NCBI GenBank assembly: GCA_013115125.1 | Contig: JABANN010000266.1 | Location: 1-45,160, forward strand | Source of the DNA: Perkinsus olseni | Lineage: Eukaryota | DNA length: 45,160 nt | Direction of reading: 5' to 3' | In this document: positions 12,591 to 41,406 of the stretch, piece by piece | Layout: each line of letters begins with the position of its first letter | Position numbering within the stretch: the stretch's first letter is position 1 | The notes under the pieces: generated by a model | Seen by the model: the letters and a program-made list of their open reading frames with translations, nothing else | What the model was told of the DNA's origin: nothing | Database searches by the model: none | Program-made: the position numbers and the translations under genes

Positions 12591-12883
12591 CGTGCATTGA
12601 GGAGGGAAGCAGCAAACATCATGAAGCTGAGAGGGTTGCAAGCGACCTCGAAGATACGCCTCAAGCAACCCAGCAGGGAACTCCGGCGTGTGATAGCGGT
12701 TGAAACGATGAATCAAGAACGATGGTGGTGTTGCTGCGATCAGCAGGATGCTTCAATAAAGGCGTCACTCAGCTAAGTAAGGATGATGATGATGATGGTG
12801 ATGAAAGGTGTCGAAGAATGAATGCTACAGAGGGGGGGGGGCACTAAGCCCCTCCTGAACCCTCGAGGGGGACACAACTACTG

Positions 12884-20848: not shown

Positions 20849-21033
20849 TTTTCGGTTGCCGATTGGGTCCAAATCTTGCTCTCTTGCATTTTCCTAACGC
20901 TCGTCTCCTCACGTTCCTCTACCAACTGAAGATATGCTGTTCCTTGTCGTATACTTACAAAGACTTCACCAGCCAGTCCGGCGTCTTGACTTGATAAATT
21001 CGTGGCGCAGCGGTCAGGGTTGATCTTAAATGC

Positions 21034-22575
21034 ATGGGTGTCAATGGCCTCTGGGCTGCCCTCTCCAAAGGCCATCCGGGAGTCTTCACCCGCATCCCTC
21101 TGCCGCCCTATGCCGTCAGTAACATCACTCGCAGCACCCTGCTGGAGGGCCGCCAGCTCTATGTTGATGCTACTATGTTTTTGTACCGATTTACTTCGTC
21201 GTCGCATCGGCTGTCGATGAACCAAGTGATGGATCGGTTCAGTCGTCTCAGCTTCGCCCTCAAGCTGCTCTCCGGACGCCGCCCGATATTTGTCTTTGAC
21301 GCGAAGCCATCGAAGATAAAGCAACGCCATTGCCTCAATCAGCGATGGGCGCTTCGGACGGCATATGCCGCCGCGGCGCTGGCAAAGGTTGAGAAGGAGT
21401 ACAGCGACGAGGAGGAGGTCACTGCAGTGCCTCCGCCAAGGCTTGCCCCAGCTCATGCAGATCTGCGTCTGGGTGTGTGGTGGTCCTGCATGTGGCGGAA
21501 CTTCTTCGTCCGAGGTCTGTCTCTAGTGAGGGCCCCCGATGGTTGGGATGCCGAAGCGGTCTGTGCCAAACTGGCAGCAAGGTGTGATGGTGTCGTTGTG
21601 AGTGAGGACGGCGACGCCCTGGCCTTCGGGGCGCCTGCCATTCTCCGCAACGTCTGGCGGTATCGGGTAGTAGACGATGATGATCAGCCAGCGGCGGAGC
21701 TGGTCGACAGGGCGGCGGTGGAGGGAGCTCTGGGCGTGTCCCCTCGGGAGTTCGTAGAAGTCTGTGTCCTGGCTGGATGTGACTTTGCCTCTCACCTGCC
21801 GAACCTGGGCTTCACTGTGGCCTCGAGAGCTGTGAGGGAGCACGGCGGCATAGGGGAGTACCTGCGCCATCGTGAGCTCAACGATAGTGACTTTAAATTA
21901 ATAAAGTTGTTTGCTTTGGCGTTCGACTGGAAGGCGGCGGTCGAGTGCTTCGATCGAGAATTGAGCGAGGATGAGGTGAAGTCCCTGGTCAGGACGGACC
22001 ACGACCGCGCTATAGTGGCGACTTGTCTACTTTATGGCGCGAGAGATTCCTTACAGACGGGAATGGACCGAATTAGTTCAACATTGAACTTGTGCAAGGG
22101 CGCAATTTCGCGGCGCGTGACGAATGTTTTGGAGCCGACGTTGGACCCGGAGGCGTTCTTCGCGGATTGTCCTTGGCGGCAGCAGTTTGGTTACTTGACG
22201 TACTCTCACGTATGCCGGAAGAATGCCATCAAAAATGGTATTTTTGCGGCGCGTGACGGTCTCGGAATGAGACGATATGTTGGTGGGAAGGGGAGGGTGT
22301 TTGAGAGAGCACGAAGGAGGAGACCGGAAAATTTCATGCAGATCGAAAATTGGCGGATGACGAGGATCTTTGAGCCGAGCTTGAGCTTGGAAGATATGCC
22401 ATCTTTGGTGTTGTTATTGGGGCCGTGGCGGTACCGGATGGCCCATGTTGCACGGCAAGAAGTTCAGACCACTCAGGGTATCTTATCGACCGTGCAAGAT
22501 ACAAATGAGGTCAGGTTGAGCCTCGTAGTGCAAGAAGGGGCTACGGCTCCTGCAGAACAGAGATGTACTGACTAG
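21034..22575 (+). CDS. XPG/Rad2 (FEN1/GEN1/EXO1 family) structure-specific nuclease, intronless
   Basis: MGVNGLW start, LYVDAT, PIFVFD, DAEAVCAKL, VVSEDGDALAFGA and LAGCDF..LPNLG (H3TH) motifs. The C-terminal ~190 aa are unrecognised. Confidence 0.88.
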   Translation: MGVNGLWAALSKGHPGVFTRIPLPPYAVSNITRSTLLEGRQLYVDATMFLYRFTSSSHRLSMNQVMDRFSRLSFALKLLSGRRPIFVFDAKPSKIKQRHCLNQRWALRTAYAAAALAKVEKEYSDEEEVTAVPPPRLAPAHADLRLGVWWSCMWRNFFVRGLSLVRAPDGWDAEAVCAKLAARCDGVVVSEDGDALAFGAPAILRNVWRYRVVDDDDQPAAELVDRAAVEGALGVSPREFVEVCVLAGCDFASHLPNLGFTVASRAVREHGGIGEYLRHRELNDSDFKLIKLFALAFDWKAAVECFDRELSEDEVKSLVRTDHDRAIVATCLLYGARDSLQTGMDRISSTLNLCKGAISRRVTNVLEPTLDPEAFFADCPWRQQFGYLTYSHVCRKNAIKNGIFAARDGLGMRRYVGGKGRVFERARRRRPENFMQIENWRMTRIFEPSLSLEDMPSLVLLLGPWRYRMAHVARQEVQTTQGILSTVQDTNEVRLSLVVQEGATAPAEQRCTD

Positions 22576-22943
22576 CCTTGTTCATGGTGTGCCAAGCAAC
22601 AGGTAGGGTCCTGACACGTTACCTAGAGTAAGTTCATTTTCGTTCAGACGGTAAACACCGAGAGGCCCGCCGGTTCCCGAAGGCTGTTGTTGTCTAATTT
22701 AACATTGAGTTTCGTGACTACCACCTGACCAGTTGTCGTGTTGTCATATTCATTAATGTGGATGTACCGGGGCTGGGGATCGAACCTGGGACCTTCGGGG
22801 TACTATCTTGCCCCCACTGTTTTATCGCTGCTCGCTCTCCCGTGTGACCACATAAGACAGATTCATCGAATTCTGAGTGCCCTTGCGCCGTCCTCACAAA
22901 CCGCTTACAGTGGTTGTCCTCGTTTAAAATACCACCCCCCTAG

Positions 22944-25900
22944 ATGCCCACCAGAAGCGTCGGTACCCATACGGCGAGGTCCATCGTGGACCTCTTCGGT
23001 AACCCGCAACCGCCGCCGCTTGCTATCCCCACAGCAATGCTCCACAGGGACCTTCGACGACGTCCCCCACTGGACGACCGAGGGAGTGCGGTTCTCGTCA
23101 TCGGCGGCTGCGGTGGACGCAAGACGAGAGGCTGATGGCTCCAAGGGAATCGCAGACTCGTATGTCTTCTCTGTGGCACACTCTCTCAGTTTTAGACGGA
23201 GATTGAGGTCCGTTGACTGCCGATGTGCGTGACCGCGCCACGAAGTTGCGTCAAGGTACATTCTGTCCTGCTGCCAGCCGTCCCAGTGGATTCTGTTAGC
23301 CCTGCTGGGCTTCGTAACAGCTCTTGTGGCGTTCACTATTGAACTATCTGTGACAAAGATGTGGGACTGGTTTCATACGGACGCATGATTCACCAGCATC
23401 GACCTAAGATACGAGCTTCGAGCGGAGTATCTTCCAGTATGGGCATGGTTACTAACAGCAGCTGTCCTCGCATTATTCTCAGTGTTTTGCGTGTAAGTTC
23501 CGTTTGGAGTGGTATCATCCTCTCTACAGGATCTCTTCAGACACGTCGGTTCGCCGGCAGCAGCAGGGTCGGGCATTCCCGAGATGAAGGTCACCCTCAC
23601 GGGCGAGGACGTCGACAACTTCCTCTCATTCCGTCGGTGCTCGTCGGCTCACCCATCACCATCATCATCCTTCCCCTAGGTACTCTGATCGCCAAGTCTG
23701 TCGGTCTCGTGGCTGTCCAGGCCGCCGGGCTGTCTCTAGGCAGCGAAGGGCCTTTTGTAGAGTTCCCAGAGTCTCGCGCATGTCCATACCACTCCTTCCC
23801 AGATTCAGGTTGCAGGCTGCCTCGCAGTAGCGCTGTGCACCTACCTCCCACAGACGTGGTTTTTCAAGTCGGGTTCAGGCCGTGGGACGCATCTTGAAAT
23901 CTTCGCTGTGCGCAGATACATCAGCGTCGAGACATATCGATTACAGCTGCTGGCGGTGGCCGTCAGTGCGGGCGTCACTGCGACTTTCGGAGCCCCGGTG
24001 GGGGGTGTCTTATTCTCAATAGAAGTACTACCGACCGCCCCCTCCATCACCCTCACCTCCACCAGCAGGTCACCGCGACCTTCTTCTTCGTGTCTTCGCT
24101 CTGGAAGGGCTTCTACACAGCGATAGCTTGTATGGTGGTCTTCAGGCTAGCGAGATTACTGGTGACACTGTGGTGACACTAACTAGGAATCAAGAGCTTT
24201 CTGCTCAGCCCCTGGTGGAGCTGTTCCAAGTAGAAGATTTGCCTCCGTTGACCATCACCCTCGAGACCTTCGCCTTCATCATCCTTGCCATCCTCTGCGG
24301 GGTCCTGTCGGGCATCATAGTGTGAGCGGCCGGCAGGACGAGCGTCGACGGAGCGAAGGTTCCTTCGATAGGTTTTTCGTCGGAGTGCTCAACTCCATCA
24401 CAAAGAGGTTCCCCATCCCAGTCCGCTACGCCTGGGCAGCCGGTGTGGCCCTGATCGACGCGGGGGTCGCATACGCGTAGGGTGGCGGAGGGTGCTGCTG
24501 CTGGCGGCTGCCGTATGGGTGCTTTAGCTCCCCTCTGTTGTGGCAGCTGGACAAGGGTCTCCTAGAGGACATGCTCAACGTGTCCCATCACGAGGCAGCC
24601 AGTGATGTTATTAACAAAGCGGGAGATCTGGCGGTGAGTGGACTGTGACGCACTGTGACGGGGAATCCTCGCTGTGCGTTTTCAGATAGTTTTTGTTGCT
24701 AAGATATGTCTTATGATTCTGTCCATGAGCTGTAGTGACCTCTGATGGACCTGCCCTCCCGTAGCAGTCCCGTTGTCAGGTTGGGTACCAGCAGGCCTTT
24801 TCCTTCCAGTATTTACGATTGGTGCGGTATCGGGACGGCTGTATGGCCTGCTAGTTCACGAGTTGCTGGCTGACAACTACGCCTTTGCCCCTCCTGCAGT
24901 GTAGCTCGCTGCTATCCATCATCACCCTGCCCACCCAGGTCCCTAGATACGCCCTGGTCGGCGCGATCTGCCTCACTGCGGGGGCTACTCGGACGATCTC
25001 GGTGGCTGTGATCGCCTTTGAGCTCACCGGCCACATACATCAGATGGCTGTTATCGTCATAAGTCAGCACCCACCACGCACTACCGCTTTAGCGGCTGCG
25101 CTCAGCAGGTACGGTGGTGTCCTACGCGGTCGCCTCCCTCTTCACTACGTCCATCTACGATGTCCTTCTTCATTTAAAGGAGCTACCATATGTACCGCAC
25201 TTGCGCCGTCCAGAACTGTGAGTGCTTGACGGCTGCTGCTGCTGATCTCACCGACGTAGCAGGTACCATCATCCTATTGGGGATATAGTTCATCGACTGC
25301 CCAACACGGCTTGTATATTTCTCCCGGAAGGAATAGATGATACCACTCCATCCCAAACTCAGCCGACTTTATGGAATGCCTACACAGCTTTAAGGTAATA
25401 CTTCTACAGTGGTGCGACAGCTAGCTCGCCTCAGTAACCTGCCTCATTCATGCCCGATGATACCAATAGTCACGCGCCACGAAAATGGTGGTCTCATGCT
25501 AGCTGGTAGTATTCGAAGGGCAATTAAAACGAGTGGTAGTAGTAAGCTGCAACAGGCACGATACCCACCCACCACGTCCAGGCTGAGCTTGAATCGATCA
25601 TGAGGGGCTTGGCTCCGGCTGCGGTGGTAGTGACTGACGAGACCATCATCTCAGAGAACAGCCAGATGCTGTCCCAGATGGAGCTCACGCTTTCACGTAA
25701 GTAGTATCATGAAAGGGGTTGATGTAGGTATGCTGACGATCAGGCGAAGGCACACCAATAGGACGAGCTGTGGACTGGAACCCTCTCACTGTACCTCACA
25801 CGATGCCGACAGCTCGAGTGCAGTAAGTCCATCATGGGAGAGCCATTTAACGGTATTTTACGATCGTCTTGTCCCCGTCAACACAACAGCTTGGGGTTCA

Positions 25901-28900
25901 AATGAAATCGTACGGTAAACAGAAATGCCGGCGGGAACTGTACGGCGGCCAGCCTATACCACAATCAGAACTAACACGATGGACAAGAATTAAAACAGAG
26001 CGTGAGGACCATCTTGGGTGTCTACCAACTATAGTAGAGTTACGGTGGTTGCAACAGGACATGGATAATCACTGTGAAATACTCTGTTCACAGATTGATG
26101 GACTAGCCAAGTGACTTGGCCCAAGTCTGATAGAGAAAGGGTAAAACAATACGCTCGCATGAGCAAGCAGTAAACCCTTCACATAGAGTGACAGGATTAG
26201 TTCTTGACGTTGACACCACCCCCATCTTCGATAGTCTCACTTCCGCCTGATTTCACAGGCACCTCGCCGGTTGCCTGAGGCGAGCCTCGTCTCCGTCTGA
26301 AGAGGGGCCAAAAACAGATGATAGCCTTGGGGATGCTCGTGTCACCAGACTTGTCGATCCGCTCATTCTCCTCTTCAAGCTTCTCACGTTTGCCATTACC
26401 ATGACGGAAGATAACAACACCGCTCATGATAACGACCAAAGAGACCCACTCGAACCAAGTGACGGTATCAGCGCCAATTAAAGGCCAGCTGATGAGGGAC
26501 ATGAAGGCAGACAGAGGGACTGTAATCTTAAGACTTACGAAAGTCAGTAAACTGGAACCATAGGATACAAGTAGGTAGATGGTGATGTTGAAGCAAACGT
26601 TGATGATCATGTAGACCACGAAAGAGGACATGGCACCGTGTGCAGTGAGCAGGGTCTCGAACCCGGCGGCCATCACGTCCAACACGTTCTCGTTAGTGCG
26701 GGCCATTTCCACCAGCATGGACACTGGGAAGACCCAGATGATACCGAAAGTGTGGTTTGAACTGCTCACAGCGAAGACGTCCAAGTTGGTCTGCTTGTAG
26801 CCGTGCTTCTCGGCGAAGGCGGTGTAGTCACGGAACATGTACTCCTTGATAACGAAACCGAGGGCCTGGAACATAGTGGACATGAGGCAGAGGATGGACA
26901 TACCGATACTGCTGGAGCCCTCACTAGTAGAGGACGTGACGGCAGAGGCGATGGTCATGGCCACGACCAAGGACACACCGAATAGCTCTTGTAAGGTGTA
27001 TCGTGCTGCCAGGATGAGGCAAGACCAGATCAGTGTGAAAGGGACCATGCCTTGCTGCAGTAGATTGAAGACGATGATAGACAGATAGGGCTGAGTCATG
27101 AACATTAAATTGTCGCCCATAACGTCACTAATTGATGAGAAGAAGGTGTACTTAACTCCCGGGAGGCGGGCCCACCAGCGCCGTAGACCGCGCTTGGAGG
27201 GATCGATGTCCTCGTCCTTGCGAGGGGTCCAAACCCACAGGAACTCCTCCTTAGTAACATAACCGAGGAGAGCCTTGCCGCCGAGGATAGACCAGTAAAC
27301 CGTGAAGTAAACAAACTGTCCGATGATGCTCGTGACGAAGCCCGAGTACTCACCCAAAGGCTCCGACCGAATCTTACCGGCAACGGTGTTGAACGTACCA
27401 GTGATGACCAACATTAAGATGAGGAATGGTACCAGCCATTTCCCAAATCGTTCCTTGAAGGTTGGCTTAGAGACCTTCTCCTCTGTGTCTAGGCGTGTGA
27501 GCTCTGTAGGCGTTGAAGCTTTCGTCATGGGGGGCCACACTTAGTGAGTAAAGTAATAGACCTTAAAGCAACACAAAGGTTCAAATCCGTTATTATCCCC
27601 ACATGCAAGAATACATTATAGCGTGGCCGGGACACTAGCTGATGCAGTCCTGACACAAAACGGTAGGCTAGCCAACTAGCTCCCGATGAAGGATACTTTG
27701 CCGTTTCGGTTTTCTCTGAATCGATCAGTTTGGTAGTTTTAACCACGGGCATGGCTTGCCGGAATCCGGCAGCCGGATGCCCAAGGGTGTTGTGAGAATG
27801 CACTTCCGGAACGGAGCAGTCTTGTAAGGAATGATTGAGGGCATCATCCGCCCTAGCTAGACGTGCGTATCTTGCACACAGAATCTTGAGTAATCGCGTA
27901 AGACAAGATAGTCCCGTGAACCCAGCAGGATGGACTGTGATGATACACTGATGCACTCGTTACACTGAAGTGTAACGGCAACCCCAAGACGACTTGTTCG
28001 ACCACTTTTTCGGACTGGAAGACTCCACATACGAGAGAATGTGGACAGTCGCCCGACTACCTAACAACACAACGCTTTATTTGTGCACTGATGCTGGGCT
28101 TCTGTAATGCCCACAGAATTGCCGACACCTACGGCTTGCAACAGGAAAAGGAGCAGCAACGCGGGGACGGTAAAGGCACATAGACGACGCCCAAGAAATA
28201 TAGGGAGAAACACTTTGATTATTGATGGTGATGGGAGTGGTGAAAGGGCAATTGTTGAACCTATGGACAGAATTGGTTTAGAAATATTCGGTTCATTGCT
28301 CCTTCCAGTGAGGCATGACAATAGTCTATCGTCTCAAACACCAATAGTATGATCAGCTGCCACGAGGAATCCCATCAAAACCGATGGGTCATGTTGGTGA
28401 TGTTGAGGGGCGAATCATAACAGTAGCGCGTTGGCAGTCTTCTTGGACAATGCAGCTGGTTGAAATCGAATAGTAGTGATAGTATATGCTTGACAATAGG
28501 GCAACCTCGCGCTCACAGCGCAGTAGGGTCGGGGATCAGCAACGATGCAGCTAACCCTTGCTGGGGAGTGTCACTTAGAAGGCGCTTCCATAGTCTTCTC
28601 GCCGCTCTCGATGTCTGTTGTCTCGGACGTCACATCACTGGTCGATGCAGAACCCTTCCGGAAGAGAAACCGCGGCCAGCAGAAGGAGGTGTTAATAGCA
28701 ACACCGCGGTTAGGGTCAGCGTTGTCCTTGGCGGGCTTCCGATGCCGGAATATGGGCCAGAAGCAGATGATAGCCTTCGGGATGGTCTCGTCGTGCGTCT
28801 CGTCTAGCCGCTCATTCTCGGCCTCGAGCTTGTCCCTGACGCCATTACCGTGCCGGAAGATGATGACACCAGCGAGGATGACGACCAGGCAAACCCACTC

Positions 28901-31147
28901 GAACCAGGTGATGGTATCAGCACCAATCAGCGGCCAACTGATAAGCGACATGAAGGCTGATAATGGTACTGTAAGTTTTAGACTCACGAATGTTAGCAAA
29001 CTCGAACCGTAGCAGACGAGGAGGTAGATGGTGATGTTGAAGCAGACGTTGATGATCATGAAGACAACGAAGGCGGGCATAGCACCTTGGGCGTGGAGGA
29101 GAGTCTGGAAACCGCCTGCCATGACGTCGAGTACATTCTCAGAGGTCCTTGATAGTTCTACCAAAATTGATATCGGGAAGACCCAAATGATACCAAAGGT
29201 ATGGTTGGAGCTGCTCACAGCGAAGACGTTGAGGTTTTTGTTCTTATATCCGTGTTCCTCGGCATACTCAGAGTAATCATGAAACATAGCCTCCCTGATA
29301 ACCTGGCCTAGAGCCTGGAAGAGGGTAGACAACAGACAGAGGATGGACATACCGATACTGCTAGAACCACCAGATGCCGAGGAGAGAACGGCAGAGGCGA
29401 TGGTCATCGCAACGACCAACGCTACTCCCAATAGCTCTTCGGATATGTACCGGGCACCGAGCAGGATGCACGACCACATCAGCGTGAAGGGGACCATTCC
29501 CTGTTGAAGTAAGTTAAATAGGATAATCGATAAGAATGGTTGGGTCAGAAACATGAGGTTATCTCCGAGTACATCAGCAATAGAAGAGAAGAAGGTATAC
29601 TTGACGCCAGGCAGTCTAGCCCACCACCGCCGGAAGCCCTTTTTAGACTTATCCACATCCTTGCGCGGGGTCCATACCCAAAGGAACTCCTCCTTGGTCA
29701 TGATGTCCTTATGCGTGAGCTTGCTCACAACCCACAGAAGAATTAAGATGCACCAGTAGGTGGTGAAGTAGACGAATTGACTGATGATACTGGTAACGTA
29801 GCCGGAGGCGTCCCCGAGCGGCTGGGAACGGATCTTGCCCGCAATAGTATTGAGCGTTCCGGTAACAACAAGAATAACAATCAGTGTCGGTATCAGCAAC
29901 TTGTGCCATGTAAACCGGTCTCCCCACGAAGTATGGGGTTTCTCCGTTGGCGCCTTCTCGGCGCTGCTGCTGCTGCTCGTCGCTGGTTCGGAGGTCACTT
30001 CAGAAAACGACATTCCCGAGTGCCGAAAGAAATAAAATCTGAAGCACGTGCCTCTTTGCCCAAAACTCCGACAATTATGAATGGTCATTGAACAGAAAGA
30101 TAAGCAGCACGCCGCCGCCCTTCGGAGTTCCTCCTGGGCCCTATTGCTAGTTTAGCTGTGTGCTGCTGTCCCCCTCTCCGGTCCATCGCTAGAAGCCCTC
30201 TCACGCCTACGATGTCAAACCTGCTGGGAAAGTGTGTGACCCCTGGGAGGCTGCGAAGCCCTTCTTGTCGTGCGGCGTCTTCTATGAGGTGTAGAGAGGC
30301 TGCCTATGGCCTTGGACACAACTGGTAGTTGTCTCCGCCGGAACGAAACTTAATGTCACAAAAAAGGGGACAGGCGGTGTGCAAGATGCCACCATCGACC
30401 TCGGATACTTCCACGCTCAGTCCTCTTGTGCAGGGTCAGCTGATTGCAAAATCCCGTATCTCACCGGTGTTCTCAGGTACCTATTCACAATGCTAAGGCT
30501 GCATTGTCTTTTTGTACTTGACGGAACGACTCACGCCTTGCTTGGCGTTGTCACTAAGGTGGGACTAGCCTTGCATGCCCTCGATAGAACTCCCTCAGGC
30601 CTCCTTTGATACGCCTGGAGACCCGCTCCTCCCTAGCAGGTCTTCAACAAGCACCAGGTCTTCAAGGAAGCCTCCGACCGGGAACGATATGGTGAGATTG
30701 ACAGACCCCAATTGGGAATAGTGAAAGTAGCGCCTAGTACGACTCGCCGCCGGTGGCCTGGTCTGACCCATGATCCTCTAGTTTTCTCAACTAGTAGTCT
30801 TGCGTTGCTCCAGTATTGTTACCTCTGAATGGTGTCGTTCCCAGGCCTTTGGTGAGCCGCCGGACGTCCGGAGACACTCCCTAGGCGGCACCGTGGCCAG
30901 TCTGCTGCCCTTGTCCTTCCTGTTCACCAGCCATCCTGGGGAGAGTACCGCCACGGTTCGCGTGAGTCGAACGAGCGCCCCGTCGAATCCCGAGAACCCT
31001 GGCTTCTGTCAGTCTGTGACATCCGTGGGTACCTCAACTGCTACCGACGTGGGAGAAGGGGCAGCAATGGTAGTAACGGAGAGAAGGGGTGAGCTCGGCG
31101 AGTGCTCGCCTCAGGCGGCTCACCGTGCTGTGTCCAGCCGATTTTGA
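22944..31147 (+). CDS. CLC chloride channel with two CBS domains (paralogue 1); many short introns plus one 4.65-kb intron; 3' end approximate
   Basis: MPTRSV...DLF|GTFDDVPH; GSGIPEMK; GSEGPF; FGAPVGGVLFSIE|VT; VPAGLFLPVF; TRTISVAVIAFELTG; SIYDVLLHLKELPY; CBS ...DWNPLTVPHTMPTARVQ|(25823-30476)|YLFTMLRLHCLFVLDGTTHALLGVVTK|ASFD, then a Ser-rich tail to 31147. Confidence 0.85.
26197..27528 (-). CDS. CRT-like (chloroquine resistance transporter / CLT family, DMT superfamily) transporter, copy 1; intronless, nested in CLC intron
   Basis: About 10 hydrophobic helices. Motifs NLLQQGMVPFTLIWSCLIL.ARY..QELFG, VIKEYMF and INVCFNITIYLLVSYGSSLL resemble CRT/CLT proteins. ATG at 27528 (the ORF track starts at an upstream GTG). 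Confidence 0.82.
   Translation of the reverse strand: MTKASTPTELTRLDTEEKVSKPTFKERFGKWLVPFLILMLVITGTFNTVAGKIRSEPLGEYSGFVTSIIGQFVYFTVYWSILGGKALLGYVTKEEFLWVWTPRKDEDIDPSKRGLRRWWARLPGVKYTFFSSISDVMGDNLMFMTQPYLSIIVFNLLQQGMVPFTLIWSCLILAARYTLQELFGVSLVVAMTIASAVTSSTSEGSSSIGMSILCLMSTMFQALGFVIKEYMFRDYTAFAEKHGYKQTNLDVFAVSSSNHTFGIIWVFPVSMLVEMARTNENVLDVMAAGFETLLTAHGAMSSFVVYMIINVCFNITIYLLVSYGSSLLTFVSLKITVPLSAFMSLISWPLIGADTVTWFEWVSLVVIMSGVVIFRHGNGKREKLEEENERIDKSGDTSIPKAIICFWPLFRRRRGSPQATGEVPVKSGGSETIEDGGGVNVKN
28571..30013 (-). CDS. CRT-like transporter, copy 2; intronless tandem paralogue, nested in CLC intron
   Basis: Colinear with and very similar to copy 1 (e.g. KEEFLWVWTPRKD, RRWWARLPGVKYTFFSSI, FAVSSSNHTFGIIWVFP). 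Likely start MSFSEV at 30013; the ORF is open to 30088. Confidence 0.82.
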   Translation of the reverse strand: MSFSEVTSEPATSSSSSAEKAPTEKPHTSWGDRFTWHKLLIPTLIVILVVTGTLNTIAGKIRSQPLGDASGYVTSIISQFVYFTTYWCILILLWVVSKLTHKDIMTKEEFLWVWTPRKDVDKSKKGFRRWWARLPGVKYTFFSSIADVLGDNLMFLTQPFLSIILFNLLQQGMVPFTLMWSCILLGARYISEELLGVALVVAMTIASAVLSSASGGSSSIGMSILCLLSTLFQALGQVIREAMFHDYSEYAEEHGYKNKNLNVFAVSSSNHTFGIIWVFPISILVELSRTSENVLDVMAGGFQTLLHAQGAMPAFVVFMIINVCFNITIYLLVCYGSSLLTFVSLKLTVPLSAFMSLISWPLIGADTITWFEWVCLVVILAGVIIFRHGNGVRDKLEAENERLDETHDETIPKAIICFWPIFRHRKPAKDNADPNRGVAINTSFCWPRFLFRKGSASTSDVTSETTDIESGEKTMEAPSK

Positions 31148-31417
31148 CGCCTGTGAATCACAGGCTATGGTTGTACCATCGCGTGGCATTGTTATCAGAG
31201 TTAAGTCAGAGCATCTTTCTATTAAAAAATCGATAAGGTTTTGTGATTTGTTATCATCATCGGCTTCTCGCCACCTTCGTCTTAAAACTTGTCAACGAGG
31301 TCCAGCTGTTGAGCTCAGTGAAGGCGAAGGTCGTGGGTTCAATTCCCGGGTGGGGCAGCTCACTAGAGTTTAAAGATACACGTAACCCCCAGCTTGCTTG
31401 TTTTCACCTCTTCAAAA

Positions 31418-34400
31418 ATGCCGAGCGACGCCCCTTGGAGCCGCGGAGGGCACAATGCGATGGCCATAACCGATCTCTTTGGTAGTAGCACCAGTTGACG
31501 GGTGGGTGGCAGCGTTGCCCGTAAAGGTACCTTTGACGATGTACCCCACAGTGCTCGACTAGGGTTGGGTGCTGCTATGCGGGACAAGGGCTCACTATTC
31601 GCCATGTCCTCCCGGAGGCTCAGCTTTAGACGGCGCTTTGGGTTCACCCTTTCGACCATCCGACTGTCGCAGTGGGCGCTGCTCACCCTCTTGGGTGCCA
31701 TCACAGCGCTCGTGGCCATCGGGGTGGAGTACTGCGTCGTGAATATGTAATTCCAACGGCATTGGGTCGAGCGACTCGCGATCACTTTCAGTTTCAATTC
31801 GAGGATGGACGCAGCGCTGTGGGTATATTTTTTAACCGGCCCCATCCTGGCCATGGCTGCCGTTGCCTGCGTGTGGGTGTGGCCCACTCCCTTCTCCATC
31901 CAGCAGCTGTTGTCTTGTTTCAGGCAGTTCGGTTCCCCGGCAGCAGTGGGCTCGGGTGTGCCTCAGATGAAAGTGACGCTTGTCGGCGAGGAGATCCCCA
32001 ACCTCCTCACGCTCCGTAATAAACCGGCTGGAGGGGGTCGATGGACGAAGCTGTGCTGCTCCCATCATGGCTCCACCCCGGGGGTGCCCCCGAAGGCCGT
32101 GGGCGGACTTAGTAGAATTTCGTATCTGAGCTCGAAGACGGTCCGATACAGTCAGGCTGGTGTGCCAGAGCTGTCGAGTCCACCGTGTCAGGTACTCTGA
32201 TATCGAAGGTGATTGGCCTGGGCTGCGGCCTGGCTGCTGGCCTGGTTATCGGCAGTGAGGGGCCCTTCGTAAGCCGCTCCTCTCTCGAGTATCTTACCTC
32301 GACCATGGCTCTCCAAAAGGTCCACATATCCGGCTGCATCGCCAACGCCCTCAGCAGATACCTACCCGAGAAGCAGTTCCGCCGGTAGCCTTTTTTGGTG
32401 ATTCTGTCATCTGCCAGCTCGACCTCTAGATACTACACCTATGAGACTTTCCGCCTGCAGCTGCTAGCGGTGGCCGTCAGCACCGGTGTGACCGCCACCT
32501 TCGGGGCTCCAGTAGGTGGTGTCATATTTGCTGTGGAGGTGAGCGGTGGCGGTGAGACTTGAGTACGGCACAGGGCCGTGGCGAACCGAACTTTCAGGAG
32601 GGCTCCCAGGATTGAATTTAGCGTTTAGAAAGGGGATCTGGGAGCGGTGTGTTGAACTGTTGCCTTACCTCAGGTCACAGCCGTGTACTTCTTCGTTTCT
32701 AACCTGCCCAGGGCCTTCTATTCCTCCATCTGCTGCGTCCTGGTCTACCGTGTCACCAGGGAATCCGTAATGAGACGAGGTTCCCGCTGACCGTTGGACA
32801 CTCTCTCTTGGTAGGGCCTCGTGGACCTGTTCGAGGTTGAAGATATGCCGGACTGGTCGCTCCACTGGGAGTTGGCGATTTTCTGTATCCTCGCCGCCGT
32901 CTGTGGTGTCGTGGCGGGGTTGCTGGTGTAAGCCCTCTCCCAGCGCTCTCCCTTTCCTTTCCAGTCCTCCTCGCCAGGCACTGCATCGGGTATATCAATC
33001 GGTACACCACGAAGCTGCCGCCGGTGTGGCGATTCTTCTGGGCGGCTTCTGTGGTCTCCGCCATAGCCGGGATCTCGTGTGGGTAAGGGTTCGTCTATCT
33101 TGTTAGCAGCTGAGATGGTGAAGGCAGGTTGCCGATACTTAAGCGTCTCGACAAGAAGCTCCTCACCTTGTTGTTCGCCCCTGATGACGACCCTTCTCGT
33201 GAATACAATGACACCATGCACAGCGTGGGGGAATTGGCGGTAGGCTGAGCATAGACCACCACAATCGGGCTGGACATAGCAATCCTTCAGGCGCTCCTCG
33301 GTGTCAAGTGCGCGACCTTCATCCTCAGTCTCAGCTGTGAGATAGTCCGCTCATCATCACCCTGCTAGTTCTCCCACCCTCCGCAGGTTCTATACCGGCT
33401 GGTGTCTTCACCCCCACCTTCGTCATTGGAGCGCTCTGCGGTCGCTTCACGGGTGTCGCCATGCATCAGCTCCTCCCTGATGCCGACCTAGCATCACCAG
33501 CCTTGTAGGTGCCCCCCACGACCATGGCCATCCCTCCCTTGTCGGTATCAGGTACTCCCTGATAGGTGCTGTGTCCGTGACCGCCGGGGTCACAAGGACC
33601 GTCTCAGTGGCAGTGATCGCCTTCGAGCTCACAGCCCAGATACACAACATGACACCGATCCTCCTATGTAGCCACCAGAGGCCTGCCAGTTCATCCAGCG
33701 CCCTTTTCGAGGCACTCTGATATCGTATACTGTCTCTGCCATGCTCACTATCTCCATCTACGACGTCCTCCTGCACCTCCGCAATTTGCCGTATTTGCCC
33801 CACCTTCGGAGGAGCGATCTGTGAGCTGGCGGGCCGCCGTCTTCTCCTCGTCAGTTGCCTCCTGAGTGGCAGATACCATCAGACGTGCCGGGGTCTTATC
33901 ATCCCAATTAACCGCAGCTTCTGCATCGCTGAGAGCGTGCATGGTGGGTTGGGTGCTTCGACGGGCCATAATGGTTCATGGTCAATTTTATGCTACCCGC
34001 ACGACTTTAACTTGCTGGTATATCCACAGCTGTGCAGTGGTCGCTTCCGCCCAGGTATGGATGCTTCGTTGAGCGACGGTTACGATGCGGCATTGCGCCT
34101 CCCGAAGGGCTGCGATAAAGTGCCTGTCGTCAGCTATGGCGTAGATGGGACAGTGATTTATCTAAAAGGCAAGCTGCTGCTGGTCTGTGCTGATAGAGTT
34201 ACCCCTTTCGCTAGGTGTGGTGCCAGCGTCCGACATCATCAGCGAGGTACGGAAGGCTCTAGAGGAGAGTCACATCCCTGAGGACATGCCCGATAGCGAG
34301 GTTAGGGATATCCTGTCCTTGAGACCACTGGAGCTGGATAGTAAGCTATCAACCTCTCCCCACAACGCTAGGTCGGCCGTGACTCAGGTCTTCTCACGAA

Positions 34401-35187
34401 AGTCGGTAAGGCGACGGACTGGTCTCCAGTAGTGGTACCGGAAACGCTACCAGTGGCCAGAGTGCAGTACCTCTTCACCATGCTTCGCCTCAAGTCCGTA
34501 TTCATCACGCAGGCCGGTACGAACAGCCTCGTCGGTGTGGTTACAAAGGTGAGGATTCTGGTGCTCCGCTCCGCCTTGTAACGGAGTCTGTTAGGAGTGC
34601 TTCGATGCCTCCGCTGAGGAGCTTATCGAGTGGGGTGAAGGGAGGCCTCAGGAGGGCAGCAGCAGCAGCAGCTACCGGCCGCCGCCAAGGCCCGGCTCCT
34701 ACTCGGTAGGCCACTCGGACTGCTGCCGGTGCATCGGAAGTTGTTCTCCTCAGCGGTCCTGGGCGGAGGATTGGCAGTTGTCCTACGGCCCCAGTAGCCA
34801 GCCGAGCAGCGATGGACACTCTGCGCCTGCAGCCATTGGTGAGGACCCGCAGCGATGGGCCCCTCCCGGAGACATAGAGGCACCAGTCACCATAGACACG
34901 GTCGTCTGGGAGGAGAGCAGCAGCGATGCACCCTCCGATACGAAGCCTCCATTCAACCTCAACTGTAAGACCTCCACGGGTGTATGCCCGTACCACCGTT
35001 TCTTTGGTCAGACTCTAACCAGGATACCAGCGCGACTCGTCACGGCGAGTACACTGGGGACCTCTCGTCACCACAATCGCCCTCGGATGGCCAGGACGAT
35101 CGCTTCACGAGACGCGTCGCAGCAGCAGCAGCAGCAGGGGCTGACCCTAGCCCATCAACCTCGGTATCTTCTAAGAATACCTCTTGA
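31418..35187 (+). CDS. CLC chloride channel with two CBS domains (paralogue 2); multi-exon, 3' end approximate
   Basis: MPSDAPW...TDLF|GTFDDVPH; GSGVPQMK; GSEGPF; FGAPVGGVIFAVE|VT; IPAGVFTPTF; SIYDVLLHLRNLPYLP; DWSPVVVPETLPVARVQYLFTMLRLKSVF...VGVVTK|ECFD. Most intron positions are shared with paralogue 1. Confidence 0.88.
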
Positions 35188-35474
35188 ACCATTCTAATGT
35201 CTCATTTTTGTTCATCTTGCACCGCCACACAGTGAAGAAGAGTATCTTTCGACTTTTATATATCCTCTGCACTCGGAGCTCATTAGCTCCTCTGCAGTCG
35301 TCTGATGGGAGTATCTTTCCTCGCGCCACCAGTCTAACGTCTACTATTCTCTCCTATTCTTTTCAATCTCCCATCAGCCTCGTCTTCGTCACAATAATAT
35401 CTTTTGCTGCGCGGAAGCGTCGTCTTGCTAAGTGTTACGAAGTGTGGGTTCAATTCCTCATCACTGGCAGAGTA

Positions 35475-37290
35475 ATGATAGCTCCCTCGCTACTGGTCAC
35501 TGGTGGCCTGGGTCCGTCGGCAGCCCAAGCACAGGGTCGATCAGGCCGCCAGCTGCTCCGTGCTGCTCGGTTGCTTTCTCGGGAGTCGGAGATCTCGCCG
35601 CTACGGTGGCTCGAGGTCAGCGATGGCACTCTGGACCTCGTCAAGCGGCGGACCGGTATCCGACTGGTAGAGGCACTAGAGGTAGGCCGGAGTGCTCCAC
35701 TGCTCTCGGAAGAATCTTTGGTCGATCAGCGGCTCGAACGAAAATAGCTCCTCTGTTGCAGGTTGGTCGTCTGATGGCCCTGTCGAACGTAGCAGACACT
35801 AGTCTGAAGTCAGCCCTGTCTGAGTGGGTCGCTGAGGACCGAGACGAGGTGACCCCCTCCTCGCCGTGGGCTCGACTGTCCTCGATGTTGTAGGATATCG
35901 TTGGGACCGAAACTGTGCTACAGGAAGCTCGTCTAGCGATGGAGGTCCTCGGCACGGATGACCCGGCCTGCAGGAAAGCCTGCAGGAGAATTCTTCGGCG
36001 TGCGAAGGATATGAACCCTGGAGACCTGGTCAGTGCAGCGAGCAGGGTATCTTCGACCTTTGGTGGTCTAGGTGGTGGCGTGGTCGTTGCTGAGCGAGGC
36101 TAGCCTATCATATAGGGAGTGGTCCCTGTTGCTTCTATCGACGTTATCCCGAGTGCAGCCCATGACCTTCATACAGGTCACATCGAGGGGATTGCTTCTT
36201 GTGCCGGATCGTCTCCTGTCGCAGGCGGCCCAAATAGCGACGGTGCTGGCGGAGACACGCTCGCAGGAGTGGCAGCAGCAGGTTGACAACGCTGACCTCG
36301 TTATCACTCTCAATAGCGTAGCTCAGCCGTGATTCCGTCACGCGCCACGAAATTATCGTCGTCAGATTTTGGCCAGTCACCAGGCATCTCTGTGTGACTC
36401 CTTGCCCCTGCCTTCCCTCCTGAGGGTGCTCGAGACGATGGCTGCGGTAGAGGCCGCCCCCAGTGAGTTCCGCAACCAGCAGCGGCTGCTAGAGCAGGCC
36501 CTGTTAGAGAGGATAAGAGGCTGGCAGGGCGGTGAGACGTGTGAGGGAGTCTTCCAGTTGATACGCGAGCGATCTCAGATCTTCCGAGGCGACTGGACTG
36601 CGGGGCACTCGTCCGATTGCTCGGTCGGTATCTTGAGAAGAGCCACTTGGAGCGGATAGCTCAGTGGGCGGCCCTCAACGCTAAGAGACGCTCGATGATG
36701 ACGGCTGAGGATCTTCTGGTCATACGGGACAAGTGCATGGAGGTGAGTCCAGCAGCACCCACTGTTGCATCCTCCGGTGACCTCAGGTTGGGTTGGAGGA
36801 CATGAGCATCATCGATGAGGCCCTCCGGTGGTGGCTGTGCTTCAAGTGGAAGTACGACGCAGCTGGAAAGCATGCTGCTGATGACGATGGCGACGTGTCA
36901 CGAGATGTTTCTGCCTACCAAGGGCGTTCTGTGTTCGTCTTGTCATCGTTCTCTGCAGCGTCGCCGGTCTTTGCTGATGAGTCTAATCCTGTCGGTCAGC
37001 GTACAAGCGCAGCCTCCAGTCTGCACTCGGCTCTTCCTTAAGATGTTCGGCGACGAAATGCTGCAGCATCCGGACTACGCTGAGGGGCAGCTGATAACAG
37101 TAGGGCAGCTGAGCGCAAGACCGGCGTGAATGGGGACGGTCAGGTGCTGTTGGAGACGCGAGAGGCGATGACGGTGGTGTCCCAGACGACCAAGCGGATT
37201 TTGGAAGAGATCGATAGAATGACGGCCGAGGCTGTGAGAGTGCAGCTATCAATCGACGCTCTAGCGATACATGCTCTCCGGTCGAAATAA
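35475..37290 (+). CDS. Hypothetical helical protein; multi-exon, possibly organelle-targeted
   Basis: Series of open segments separated by ~45-nt GT-AG introns (e.g. ...LVEALE|VGRLMAL...DRDE|DIVGTE...). Arg/Leu/Ser-rich N-terminus. No domain recognised. Confidence 0.6.
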
Positions 37291-40243: not shown

Positions 40244-41406
40244 AGTGCAAAGAATAGACTATCCACGGTGTTTGCCATGAGTCAACCCGATGATGCTTGC
40301 ACCCGATAAAGGCAAAAAAGGAGTCCAGCTAAAGTTTTGCCTGGTTGTTCCCTCGCTGCCCTTCAGAGTGAACCCATTACCATCTGCTTCTGAGCGCAGC
40401 TTGAAGGGAGTAAGCTGTGCATGGCGTGCACGGCACGCGCGCATGGAAGATGCTATCGCTGTATGATGAGTTCTCTCTCATTCGCTGGTTCACATCGTCA
40501 CATCTCCTCGGTCGTTGGTGTGACATCATTATCGATCGATAAATTCTATACCCGGAGACTAAGGTGCTGCTGATCACCCATGCCATCGGCGCCTCGTCCG
40601 CAACATGCCTGCGTGCTGGCTAGTGTCTATAGCTTTACGCTGTGCGACCCAAGTCGCACGTATGAGCTCGGTTGTTCTCGTCCCTAGCAGAACACTTACA
40701 AGCCCTTCGAGAAAGCATACAAGCGTGCCCACGCTGTGCCGAAAGCAATGAGCGCGCCGATTTTGGCTCACTTGTACCCGAGCAAGCTGAGAGATGCCTC
40801 ATTCACCAGCTGACAGCCGGGAGACAGGAGGGGGCAGCAATCAGGGCCTAGAATGATGATTATATTCCGATTTTTCTTCAGTAGGAGTTTCCAGACCATA
40901 TCTAGGTTCGAGGAAAGGCAGAATCGTGAGAGGCCGAATCCCTGGCGATCACTTCTCTACTGGAGGGCCTCCAGGATACTCTCCTCTCCTGTCGAGCTGC
41001 ATCGCTAGTTCACCTCGATGGTGTGTCTCCCTCCTCATCGCTAGAGAAGGCCTCACCCAGTGTAGGTGCCACCTACACTGGGTGACGTCTTTTCTAGGTG
41101 GAAAAGGTCGCCTACTAAGCGGACTAGCTCGTGACTCTGGGTGTAGATTCGCCTTGCGAGAATGACCAGACGGCCAGGATATGAATTTTTCTCCATGCTT
41201 AGTGCGAGGGATTGCCTAGGCTTCCCTGCGCAACTATCAGGTGTCTTCATTGGAATGTAATAAATGGCGTACTGGAGGGCCAGACACTCGAGGCCAGCCG
41301 TGTTCTTGACAAAGGTGATGATTGTTGGGAGCTTCCGGTTCATTCCCAGTGGTTTTTCGTTGAGTGCCGTGGGGCAGCTGTATAATGGGCAGCGTAAGTT
41401 CCCTTA

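What the first reader, a model, noticed from the sequence alone, without database searches (positions are those of the whole stretch)
25823..30476. Two intact antisense CRT-like transporter genes nested in a 4.65-kb intron that splits a CBS domain of a CLC channel
Seen: CLC1 reads ...DWNPLTVPHTMPTARVQ and breaks at CA|GTAAGT (25823). It resumes in the same phase at TTCTCAG|G TAC (30477) as YLFTMLRLHCLFVLDGTTHALLGVVTK, followed by an intron at the same place as in CLC2. The neighbouring paralogue has this segment contiguous (DWSPVVVPETLPVARVQYLFTMLRLKSVFITQAGTNSLVGVVTK). The intron is about 100 times the local ~45-nt norm and holds two intronless CRT-like ORFs on the opposite strand. Known: CRT/CLT carriers and many CLCs act on vacuolar, lysosomal or plastid membranes. 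Inference: a gene-within-gene transporter module (CLC[CRT,CRT]-CLC) with possible antisense interference or co-regulation, which gene predictors would probably split.
Basis: partly seen in the sequence, partly recalled or inferred. Interest (0 to 1): 0.85.

Follow-up and report, generated by a model that had tools for sequence, protein, structure and literature searches.

The report
Two transporter genes inside Perkinsus intron
In a shellfish parasite whose introns are normally about 48 bases long, one chloride-channel gene has a real, spliced 4.65-kb intron that holds two working transporter genes on the other strand, an ordinary kind of gene nesting that public annotations of this gene have cut in two.

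Summary
CLC1 (+ strand) stops at 25822 (donor GTAAGT) and resumes in phase at 30477. The neighbouring paralogue CLC2 has the same stretch in one exon.

Assembled contigs of 2 of 4 laid public runs, from two studies, carry the joint 25822->30477 (GT..AG, skips 4654). In one run it sits in a single 2476-nt contig with the other CLC1 joints and a spliced-leader tail. So the intron is real. My CLC1 model has 786 aa and 24 introns, median 48 nt.

Both minus-strand ORFs pass Pfam's CRT-like threshold. They appear as unspliced mRNA-like contigs, and CRT2 carries the Perkinsus spliced leader.

The order "3' CLC1 exons, CRT2, CRT1" recurs in another P. olseni isolate and in P. chesapeaki. Public models split the host gene, ending at ...ARVQ or starting as orphan "hypothetical proteins".

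Nested intronic genes are well known, including in dinoflagellates (PMC7245778). This is a new member of a known kind plus an annotation correction. No evidence bears on antisense interference or a functional CLC-CRT module. Whether the intron was gained, and whether P. marinus shares the nesting, remains open.

The parts
22909..25822 (+). CLC1 exons 1-20. Spliced-leader acceptor AG at 22909-22910, ATG at 22944; exon 20 is 25744-25822 and ends inside codon Q660.
   Evidence: joints in X7 and X9, and loose end CTTGGCTCA before 22909; gene model; 658 of 658 aligned residues identical to public P. olseni model P0041.
25823..30476 (+). Intron 20 of CLC1: 4654 nt, GTAAGT...TCTCAG, phase 2.
   Evidence: sequence. 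table 5: joint 25822->30477 in X7 (depth 96.2, side 27) and X9 (depth 59.7, side 79); no terminal inverted or direct repeat above shuffled controls; no significant Rfam match (one row at E 0.92, far below threshold) and no tRNA.
26197..27528 (-). CRT1 coding sequence: 443 aa plus stop, intronless, CRT-like transporter. The mRNA-like contig spans 25929-27564.
   Evidence: PF08627 at 50.3 bits. X8 contig 25929-27564 is colinear with no other letters; translation equals stored protein P0031; 97% identity to P. olseni P0007, 88% to P. chesapeaki P0009.
28571..30013 (-). CRT2 coding sequence: 480 aa plus stop, intronless, CRT-like transporter. The mRNA-like contig spans 28366-30040, with the spliced-leader acceptor AG at 30040-30039.
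   Evidence: PF08627 at 41.6 bits. X8 contig 28366-30040 with loose end TGAGCCAAG behind 30040; this matches the 3' end of PmaSL1; translation equals stored protein P0035.
30477..31147 (+). CLC1 exons 21-25: 30477-30558, 30599-30691, 30845-30961, 31013-31069 and 31115-31147 (stop TGA). They encode the second half of CBS2 and a C-terminal tail. The X9 contig runs on to about 31218.
   Evidence: joints 30556->30597, 30690->30844, 30961->31013 and 31068->31114..
34388..34548 (+). CLC2 exon that holds, uninterrupted, the stretch split in CLC1. The CLC2 leader acceptor is at 31391.
   Evidence: loose end CTTGGCTCA before 31391.

Best explanation
The window comes from Perkinsus olseni or a very close relative. 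CLC1 is a 25-exon chloride-channel-family gene. Its 20th intron (25823-30476) is a genuine cis-spliced GT..AG intron of 4654 nt, lying in the first helix of the last CBS motif.

The intron is long only because it contains two old paralogous, intronless CRT-like (drug/metabolite-transporter superfamily) genes on the opposite strand. Each is expressed as its own mRNA; a spliced leader is shown for CRT2.

Shown:
- the splice
- the separate CRT mRNAs
- the conserved gene order in a second P. olseni isolate and in P. chesapeaki
- purifying selection on both CRT copies

Inferred:
- The host pre-mRNA is transcribed through both nested genes and spliced normally, giving a 786-aa protein with a complete CBS pair.
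- Failure to splice would give a 660-aa protein that lacks half of CBS2.
- The nesting itself has no demonstrated function. It is ordinary nested gene organisation that happens to stand out in a genome with 48-nt introns.
For: Splice:
-, table 5: joint 25822->30477 (skips 4654, GT..AG) in 2 of 4 laid runs (X7, X9; studies P3, P5).
- In X9 all 15 listed CLC1 joints carry the same contig depth (59.7). The listed pieces of a 2476-nt contig begin 98 letters in at 23047, with CTTGGCTCA loose before 22909.
- Intron bins have depth 0-2.3 in X9, against 25-45 in the CLC1 exon bins (22934-25971 and 30312-31179).

Spliced leader:
- CTTGGCTCA plus genomic AG equals the last 11 nt of PmaSL1, ACCGTAGCCATCTTGGCTCAAG (PMC3101222, passage read).

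Nested mRNAs:
- X8 contigs 25929-27564 and 28366-30040 are colinear with no other letters. The second carries the leader's reverse complement behind 30040.

Families:
- PF08627 above threshold.
- A profile of 10 Perkinsus CRT-likes hits PfCRT 6ukj at E 5e-08 as the only significant chain.
- PF00654 in P. olseni orthologues P0021 and P0004.

Selection:
- CRT1 versus CRT2: pN 0.20, pS 0.74 (saturated), dN/dS about 0.07.

Synteny:
- P. chesapeaki FOL47_003982 (a 125-aa piece starting MLRLHCLF, matching CLC1 residues 665-785), 003983 (CRT2-like) and 003984 (CRT1-like). Tags and accessions are consecutive and all three report a 129437-nt contig.
- P. olseni, 91631-nt contig: CLC2, orphan 3' piece FOZ60_003955, CRT2 FOZ60_003956 and CRT1 FOZ60_003957, with consecutive accessions.
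- Both intron borders recur on small contigs of other isolates. P0020 or P0045 (both ending ARVQ) lie next to CRT1, and CRT2 lies next to an orphan piece.
- The DNA-like run X12 (about 5% divergent) has depth in all 30 bins, and one contig runs 30443-31488 across the acceptor.
Against: - All RNA evidence is from assembled contigs of runs whose type is only guessed ('RNA?', '?'). No single molecule or raw read was seen, and no record spans the whole intron.
- X7 also has a contig that runs unspliced from 25796 into the intron (to 26653, depth 10.3), with depth 3-10 across the intron. So unspliced RNA or DNA is present there.
- In X8 the only piece at the acceptor (30408-30558, depth 2) is unspliced, and the joint is absent from that run.
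- A leader tail for CRT1 is not among the listed loose ends (12 rows were not shown). Its contig merely starts at an AAG.
- In P. marinus the CRT pair (PMAR006624 and PMAR006625) reports a 306309-nt record. The only CLC1 C-terminal model (PMAR006782, junction joined) reports a 537928-nt record. Nesting may therefore not hold across the genus.
- CBS assignment is below Pfam's threshold (18.9 and 20.8 bits against 24).
Confidence: 0.88

Rival explanations
1. CLC1 was truncated by insertion of the CRT pair. The gene now ends at the TAA after 25822, and the downstream exons are orphan remnants or a separate small gene, as the public models have it.
For: - Public models P0041 (658 aa), P0045, P0021 and P0020 end at ...ARVQ.
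- Orphan models P0022, P0028, P0029 and P0024 start after or inside the intron.
- X7 and X8 hold some unspliced pieces at the borders.
Against: - The joint 25822->30477 is present at the same contig depth as the other CLC1 joints in X9 (59.7), and in X7 (96.2).
- The reading frame and the homology to CLC2, Chromera CLC and P. marinus run straight across the junction.
- The 3' exons are conserved in P. chesapeaki (60 of 116 aligned residues identical).
Confidence: 0.03
2. Misassembly: the 4.65-kb segment does not lie between exons 20 and 21 in the real chromosome.
For: - No laid record spans the whole intron.
- The six runs holding 99-100% of the words may be the source of the DNA, so they are not independent.
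Against: - Both borders are bridged by contigs of other runs: X7 25796-26653, X8 30408-30558 and X12 30443-31488.
- The same gene order appears on a 91631-nt contig of another isolate and a 129437-nt contig of P. chesapeaki. Border pairs also occur on several small contigs.
Confidence: 0.02
3. The two CLC1 halves are transcribed separately and joined in trans, in an organism that already trans-splices leaders, rather than by cis-splicing of a 4.65-kb intron.
For: - Perkinsus has active trans-splicing machinery (PMC3101222).
- Contigs cannot tell cis from trans.
- Introns in 104 P. marinus genes were 39-1622 bp (PMC3101222, passage), so 4654 nt is outside what was reported there.
Against: - Both halves lie on the same strand, in order, with canonical GTAAGT and polypyrimidine-AG sites.
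- X7 holds RNA or DNA through the whole intron.
- No leader-type loose end is listed at 30477 (listed rows only).
Confidence: 0.04
4. The nesting is regulatory. Transcription of CLC1 through the antisense CRT genes, or the reverse, makes their expression mutually exclusive or coupled, forming a CLC/CRT vacuolar transport switch.
For: - The arrangement is kept in two species.
- Weak hint only: in X8 the CRT contigs have depth 24.6 and 13.5 against about 2 for CLC1 pieces. In X7 and X9 the CLC1 contigs are at about 60, against 10 or less for the CRT region. The tool warns that contig depth cannot rank genes.
- Nested genes are reported to diverge in expression through transcriptional interference in Drosophila (PMC5174743, abstract seen in the listing).
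Against: - No strand-specific or quantitative data were seen.
- The runs were chosen by how many words of this stretch they hold, which biases such ratios.
- Mature mRNAs do not overlap.
- Conserved order is expected for any nested pair, because moving out needs a precise rearrangement.
- In P. marinus the pair may lie elsewhere.
Confidence: 0.12

Closest known systems
Nested (intronic) protein-coding genes of eukaryotes, e.g. in the dinoflagellate Polarella glacialis, where 6.5-8.4% of predicted genes lie in introns of multi-exon genes (PMC7245778, passage read), and in Drosophila (PMC5174743, abstract in the listing)
   Same: - Complete genes with their own transcripts lie inside an intron of a host gene that is still spliced across them.
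- The nested genes are single-exon.
- Transcript evidence validates the structure.
   Different: - The host genome's introns are about 48 nt (22 of 24 in this gene are 40-52 nt), so the intron is long only because of its cargo.
- The cargo is an old paralogous pair (synonymous sites saturated) kept in two species. It is not the young duplicates inserted into already long introns that the Drosophila abstract describes.
- The intron has no counterpart in the tandem paralogue.
PfCRT and CRT-like transporters (Pfam PF08627; structure 6ukj)
   Same: - Both ORFs pass the Pfam threshold.
- The family profile finds 6ukj at E 5e-08 over positions 135-403.
   Different: - A single-sequence search finds no solved relative.
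- Only profile positions 76-335 of the Pfam model are matched.
- Perkinsus has several paralogues, often in adjacent pairs.
- Substrate and membrane are unknown.
Eukaryotic CLC channels and exchangers with a C-terminal CBS pair (CmCLC 3org; ClC-2, ClC-1, ClC-3)
   Same: - PF00654 in the P. olseni orthologues.
- The best solved relatives are CmCLC (E 6.5e-55), then ClC-2 and ClC-1.
- The interrupted stretch aligns to CmCLC residues 573-617 and to the C-terminal end of ClC-3.
   Different: - CBS matches are below Pfam's cut-off.
- There is a long, poorly conserved linker and a C-terminal tail.
- Channel or exchanger was not tested.
Perkinsus spliced-leader trans-splicing (PmaSL1/PmaSL2; PMC3101222)
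   Same: Nine-letter tails plus the genomic AG reproduce the last 11 nt of PmaSL1 at four mRNA 5' ends.
   Different: Only the last 9 letters are visible in contigs. P. olseni's own leader sequence was not looked up.

Membership tests
Nested intronic gene (host/nested pair) | Host exons on both sides are joined in mature RNA. | tested here: met
   joint 25822->30477 in contigs of X7 and X9 (2 of 4 runs, 2 studies).
Nested intronic gene (host/nested pair) | The nested gene lies wholly inside the intron and has its own transcript. | tested here: met
   X8 contigs 25929-27564 and 28366-30040 lie inside 25823-30476. A leader tail is seen on CRT2 but not among the listed rows for CRT1.
CRT-like transporter (PF08627) | Score above Pfam's gathering threshold. 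| tested here: met
   50.3 and 41.6 bits against 26.9; profile hit to PfCRT 6ukj at E 5e-08.
CRT-like transporter (PF08627) | Ten-helix drug/metabolite-transporter fold and transport activity. | not tested
   No fold or helix prediction was run for the CRT proteins. Activity is not testable with these tools.
CLC (PF00654 Voltage_CLC) | Pfam match to the membrane domain. | tested here: met
   P0021 E 4.1e-32 and P0004 E 7.2e-63. P0021 belongs to the same 90%-identity cluster as P0041, and P0041 is identical over 658 of 658 aligned residues to my CLC1 model. The spliced window protein itself was not submitted, because joined sequence is not typed into tools.
CBS domain (PF00571) at the junction | Pfam match above threshold, or a beta-alpha-beta-beta-alpha fold. 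| tested here: inconclusive
   - 18.9 bits (P0006 residues 76-117) and 20.8 bits (P0004 residues 508-549), both under the cut-off of 24.
- aligns to CmCLC 573-617.
- model has pLDDT about 76 over residues 81-120, with helix 86-95 spanning Q90|Y91 and strands 100-104 and 111-116.
- no Foldseek hit at E <= 0.001. The top rows are ClC-5, ClC-3 and IMPDH CBS domains over 41-43 columns at rmsd 1.4-1.8.
Transposon- or introner-borne intron | Terminal inverted repeats or a target-site duplication at the intron ends. | tested here: not met
   best inverted match scores 17 (200 shuffles: mean 16.4, maximum 25). Only GTA is shared at the two borders; no repeat at the ends.
Spliced-leader trans-spliced mRNA | Non-genomic leader sequence at the 5' end, joined at an AG. 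| tested here: met
   met for CLC1 (22909), CRT2 (30040, minus strand), CLC2 (31391) and a gene at 35469. Not shown for CRT1.

The most novel reading that the evidence does not exclude
The intron did not exist before the CRT genes arrived. After the CLC1/CLC2 duplication, an already old CRT pair was relocated into the CBS2-coding exon of CLC1 (or into a minimal new intron there), creating a cargo-bearing intron in a genome of 48-nt introns.

Points in favour:
- CLC2 lacks any intron at this site, while 14 of 17 comparable introns are shared in position and phase.
- In P. marinus the CRT pair appears to lie on another record than the joined CLC1 C-terminus.

If so, the event is datable within the genus. 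It may also be coupled to reciprocal expression of host and nested genes, for which one search gives only a weak depth hint.
Probability: 0.15. Interest if true: 0.55.

Novelty: new member of a known kind. Interest (0 to 1): 0.3.

Why it matters
**Annotation.** It corrects a gene model. The public P. olseni and P. chesapeaki annotations give a CLC1 that lacks half of its last CBS motif, plus a spurious "hypothetical protein". The RNA-supported protein has 786 aa.

**Splicing capacity.** A perkinsid spliceosome that normally handles 40-52-nt introns can remove one of 4.65 kb. This is about three times the longest intron reported among 104 P. marinus genes (1622 bp; PMC3101222).

**Gene prediction.** Predictors tuned to tiny introns will miss such cases.

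**Intron evolution.** Together with P. marinus and outgroups, the locus offers a clean test of intron gain versus loss.

It does not by itself reveal new biology of CLC or CRT transporters.

Tried and rejected
- No whole genome is held for the window, so genome-wide intron statistics and a search for other long introns could not be done.
- Earlier findings of this scan: nothing near this place and nothing relevant by words.
- Rfam at E <= 1 gave only one chance-level row (CrcZ, E 0.92). There are no tRNAs, so no RNA gene explains the intron.
- No transposon-like ends.
- A single-sequence PDB search with CRT1 relative P0007 found nothing. The profile search did.
- tblastn for exon mapping was too noisy. 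I replaced it with k-mer blocks and splice-site scoring. A brute-force intron enumeration gave thousands of paths and was dropped.
- The metagenome scan for CRT relatives matched 102 pattern stretches, none confirmed. It was not repeated.
- Foldseek on the low-confidence P0006 model gave no match at E <= 0.001.
- Parts without cover: X8 has no depth over most of CLC1 and CLC2, and X9 has almost none over the CRT genes. I draw no conclusion from these gaps.
- Literature: 'Perkinsus' plus 'nested gene' returned 1 paper, a gene-prediction tool paper by its title and abstract, which I did not read. 'Perkinsus olseni' plus 'genome assembly' plus 'intron' returned 7 host or other-organism papers by title. 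One search returned 4 papers, none on gene structure by title. I found no description of this locus in these three searches.
- Supplementary tables of PMC3101222 (intron lists) could not be seen.
Full report
**1. Observation**

- CLC1 reads ...DWNPLTVPHTMPTARVQ and its exon ends at 25822. GTAAGT follows, and TAA (25824-25826) is in frame.
- After ...GTGTTCTCAG (ending at 30476) the frame resumes at 30477 as YLFTMLRLHCLFVLDGTTHALLGVVTK.
- A tblastx comparison of the two CLC regions shows the CLC2 stretch 34384-34551 is uninterrupted. It matches CLC1 25740-25823 and 30472-30561.
- Between the two CLC1 pieces lie two minus-strand ORFs, 26197-27540 and 28571-30151 stop to stop.
- Both ORFs pass Pfam's threshold for CRT-like PF08627, at 50.3 and 41.6 bits against 26.9. 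They are 75% identical over 397 residues.

**2. Is the intron real?**

No genome is held for the window, so I used public runs. Twenty runs hold part of 23000-31000. I laid four of them on 22500-35500:
- X7: 'RNA?'
- X8: '?'
- X9: '?'
- X12: 'DNA?', about 5% divergent

Findings:
- The joint 25822->30477 (skips 4654, GT..AG) is in one contig each of X7 (depth 96.2, 27 letters on the short side) and X9 (depth 59.7, 79 letters, which is the whole of exon 20). These runs come from two studies.
- In X9 all 15 listed CLC1 joints have the same contig depth. The listed pieces of a 2476-nt contig start at record position 99 at 23047.
- Nine loose letters, CTTGGCTCA, precede 22909. With the genomic AG they give the last 11 nt of the P. 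marinus spliced leader PmaSL1, ACCGTAGCCATCTTGGCTCAAG (PMC3101222, passages read; genome check).
- Intron-free contigs with a leader tail, and depth of 0-2.3 over the long intron in X9, show that this is processed RNA.

Against a clean picture:
- X7 also has a contig running unspliced from 25796 to 26653 (depth 10.3), with depth 3-10 through the intron.
- X8 lacks the joint, and its only piece at the acceptor (30408-30558, depth 2) is unspliced.
- X12 shows none of the 15 listed joints.
- Only 15 of 47 joints are listed.
- All evidence is from contigs, not reads.

**3. Gene models**

I built the CLC1 model from three sources:
- 15 listed joints
- one joint inferred from X9 side lengths (23756->23803)
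- eight joints inferred from GT..AG plus a match to P. olseni protein P0021

The resulting model:
- 25 exons and 24 introns, with ATG at 22944 and stop at 31147, giving 786 aa.
- Intron lengths: 22 of 24 are 40-52 nt, one is 153 and one is 4654. The median is 48.
- The long intron is in phase 2 inside codon Q660.
- The model up to Q660 is identical over 658 of 658 aligned residues to public P. olseni model P0041. They differ only in one acceptor choice, which accounts for two residues.

For the nested genes, CRT1 (26197-27528, 443 aa) and CRT2 (28571-30013, 480 aa) translate exactly to stored proteins P0031 and P0035.

A CLC2 model guided by P0004 lets me compare intron sites:
- Of the 17 CLC1 introns in the part aligned to CLC2, 14 coincide in position and phase.
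- Two lie in the poorly aligned linker.
- The 4654-nt intron has no partner, although the flanking protein is well conserved.

**4. The nested genes**

- X8 holds colinear contigs 25929-27564 and 28366-30040 with no other letters, so both mRNAs are unspliced.
- The second contig ends with TAGCCAAG-type leader complement (TGAGCCAAG) behind 30040. This fixes the strand and the 5' end, and makes M47 of the ORF the start. That agrees with public models.
- The CRT1 contig begins at an AAG, but no leader tail is among the listed rows.
- The mRNA ends lie 106 nt from the CLC1 donor and 436 nt from the acceptor. The mature RNAs therefore do not overlap CLC1 exons.
- CRT1 versus CRT2: pN 0.20, pS 0.74 (saturated), dN/dS about 0.07. 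This is an old duplication with both copies under purifying selection.
- A profile of 10 Perkinsus homologues finds PfCRT (6ukj) at E 5e-08 as the only significant solved chain. A single sequence finds none.

**5. Organism and conservation**

Best protein matches:
- P. olseni at 93-97% identity.
- P. chesapeaki at 88% (CRT1 orthologue) and 70% (CRT2 orthologue).
- P. marinus at 57-69%.

Exact look-ups give the following gene orders:
- *P. chesapeaki:* FOL47_003982 (125 aa, starting MLRLHCLF, aligned to CLC1 residues 665-785), 003983 (CRT2-like) and 003984 (CRT1-like). Accessions are consecutive and all report a 129437-nt contig.
- *Another P. olseni isolate (91631-nt contig):* CLC2, FOZ60_003955 (orphan 3' piece), FOZ60_003956 (CRT2) and FOZ60_003957 (CRT1), with consecutive accessions.
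- *Small contigs of other isolates:* a CLC1 model ending ARVQ pairs with CRT1, and CRT2 pairs with an orphan 3' piece.

This is the window's order read backwards, so the nesting predates the split of these two species.

P. marinus is unclear:
- PMAR006782 (185 aa) has the junction joined (...TARVQYLFTMLRLHC...).
- It reports a 537928-nt record, whereas the adjacent CRT pair PMAR006624 and PMAR006625 reports a 306309-nt record.
- I could not read those records.

**6. Public models**

- P0041 (658 aa), P0045 (644 aa), P0021 and P0020 all end at ...TMPTARVQ.
- P0028 and P0024 start at the first Met after the junction. P0022 and P0029 start inside the intron.

**7. CBS**

- Pfam CBS matches span the junction but fall below the cut-off of 24 bits: P0006 residues 76-117 at 18.9 bits, and P0004 residues 508-549 at 20.8 bits.
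- The same stretch aligns to CmCLC residues 573-617. The ClC-3 alignments run to within 20 residues of that chain's end.
- An AlphaFold model of P0006 is poor overall (pLDDT 55.9). Over residues 81-120 pLDDT is about 76, with helix 86-95 across Q90|Y91 and strands 100-104 and 111-116.
- Foldseek has no hit at E <= 0.001. Its top rows are CBS domains of ClC-5, ClC-3, IMPDH and Snf4, over 41-43 columns at rmsd 1.4-1.8.
- I take it as CBS2, on concordant but individually weak evidence.

**8. Origin**

- The intron ends carry no inverted or direct repeats above shuffled controls. Only GTA is shared at the borders.
- There is no significant RNA gene inside.
- CLC2's exon has the same nucleotides, GAGTGCAGTACCT, at the site.
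- The possible scenarios are that CLC2 lost a small ancestral intron, or that CLC1 gained one together with, or before, the CRT pair.
- P. marinus and outgroup gene structures would decide between these.

**9. Comparison and verdict**

- Nested genes in introns are common in eukaryotes (PMC5174743, abstract).
- In the dinoflagellate Polarella, 6.5-8.4% of genes are nested and transcript-validated (PMC7245778, passage read).
- Reported P. marinus introns span 39-1622 bp, mostly under 100 bp (PMC3101222, passage read). A 4654-nt intron is therefore an outlier for the genus, but not a new kind of thing.
- Three literature searches found no description of this locus.
- Verdict: a real, conserved host/nested gene arrangement and a worthwhile annotation correction. 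The proposed regulatory or functional coupling is untested. Interest 0.3.

Noticed in passing
window 22909, 31391 and 35469 (+); 30040 (-): Contig tails CTTGGCTCA (or the reverse complement) followed by genomic AG mark spliced-leader acceptor sites. They give the exact 5' ends of the CLC1, CLC2, CRT2 and one downstream mRNA.
   Followed up: partly
window 23757-23802: The X7 contig keeps this 46-nt CLC1 intron (piece 23680-23867 is continuous), while X9 side lengths imply it is spliced out. Retention would shift the frame. The public model P0041 uses a different acceptor (23808) here.
   Followed up: partly
window 30845-31218: In X7 the contig over the last CLC1 exons (joints 30961->31013 and 31068->31114) has depth 231, against 96 for the contig upstream. 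The preceding intron is unusually long (153 nt). This could be a second transcript or an internal leader acceptor at 30845; it was not resolved.
   Followed up: no
window 25230, 34655, 35119: Long loose ends in X7 and X9 start at CTG/CAG-repeat stretches. They are probably assembly chimeras at low-complexity words rather than alternative exons.
   Followed up: no
window 24000-24090 (CLC1) and 32520-32690 (CLC2): Both CLCs read FSIEVT / FAVEVT, with valine where, as I recall, exchanger-type CLCs have the 'proton glutamate' and channel-type ClC-0/1/2 have valine. After CmCLC, the best solved relatives are the ClC-2 and ClC-1 channels. The motif reading is recalled, not tested.
   Followed up: no
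window 32016-32191, 32539-32673, 33944-34054: CLC2 appears to have introns of 176, 135 and 111 nt. These were inferred from a public protein model and not shown by listed joints. The 'about 45 nt' norm therefore has moderate exceptions nearby.
   Followed up: no
window 27501 and 32592-32624: The divergent DNA-like run X12 has loose ends here, upstream of CRT1 and in a CLC2 intron. This suggests indels or rearranged spacers in that relative.
   Followed up: no
window 20998-22575 (+), 41398-43722 (+), 8623-9312 (-), 9732-12752 (-), 12884-15580 (-): Other long open frames in the window:
- an XPG-type nuclease (PF00867/PF00752)
- a Methyltransf_28 protein
- a cyclin-domain piece
- two frames of 1006 and 898 aa with no Pfam match
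   Followed up: partly
P. chesapeaki FOL47_002191/002192; P. marinus PMAR006624/006625: CRT-like paralogues repeatedly occur as adjacent pairs in Perkinsus. Some tiny records labelled P. marinus (P0037, P0043, P0044) sit in 90%-identity clusters with P. olseni proteins, which is odd given the 57-69% identity of the other P. marinus models.
   Followed up: no
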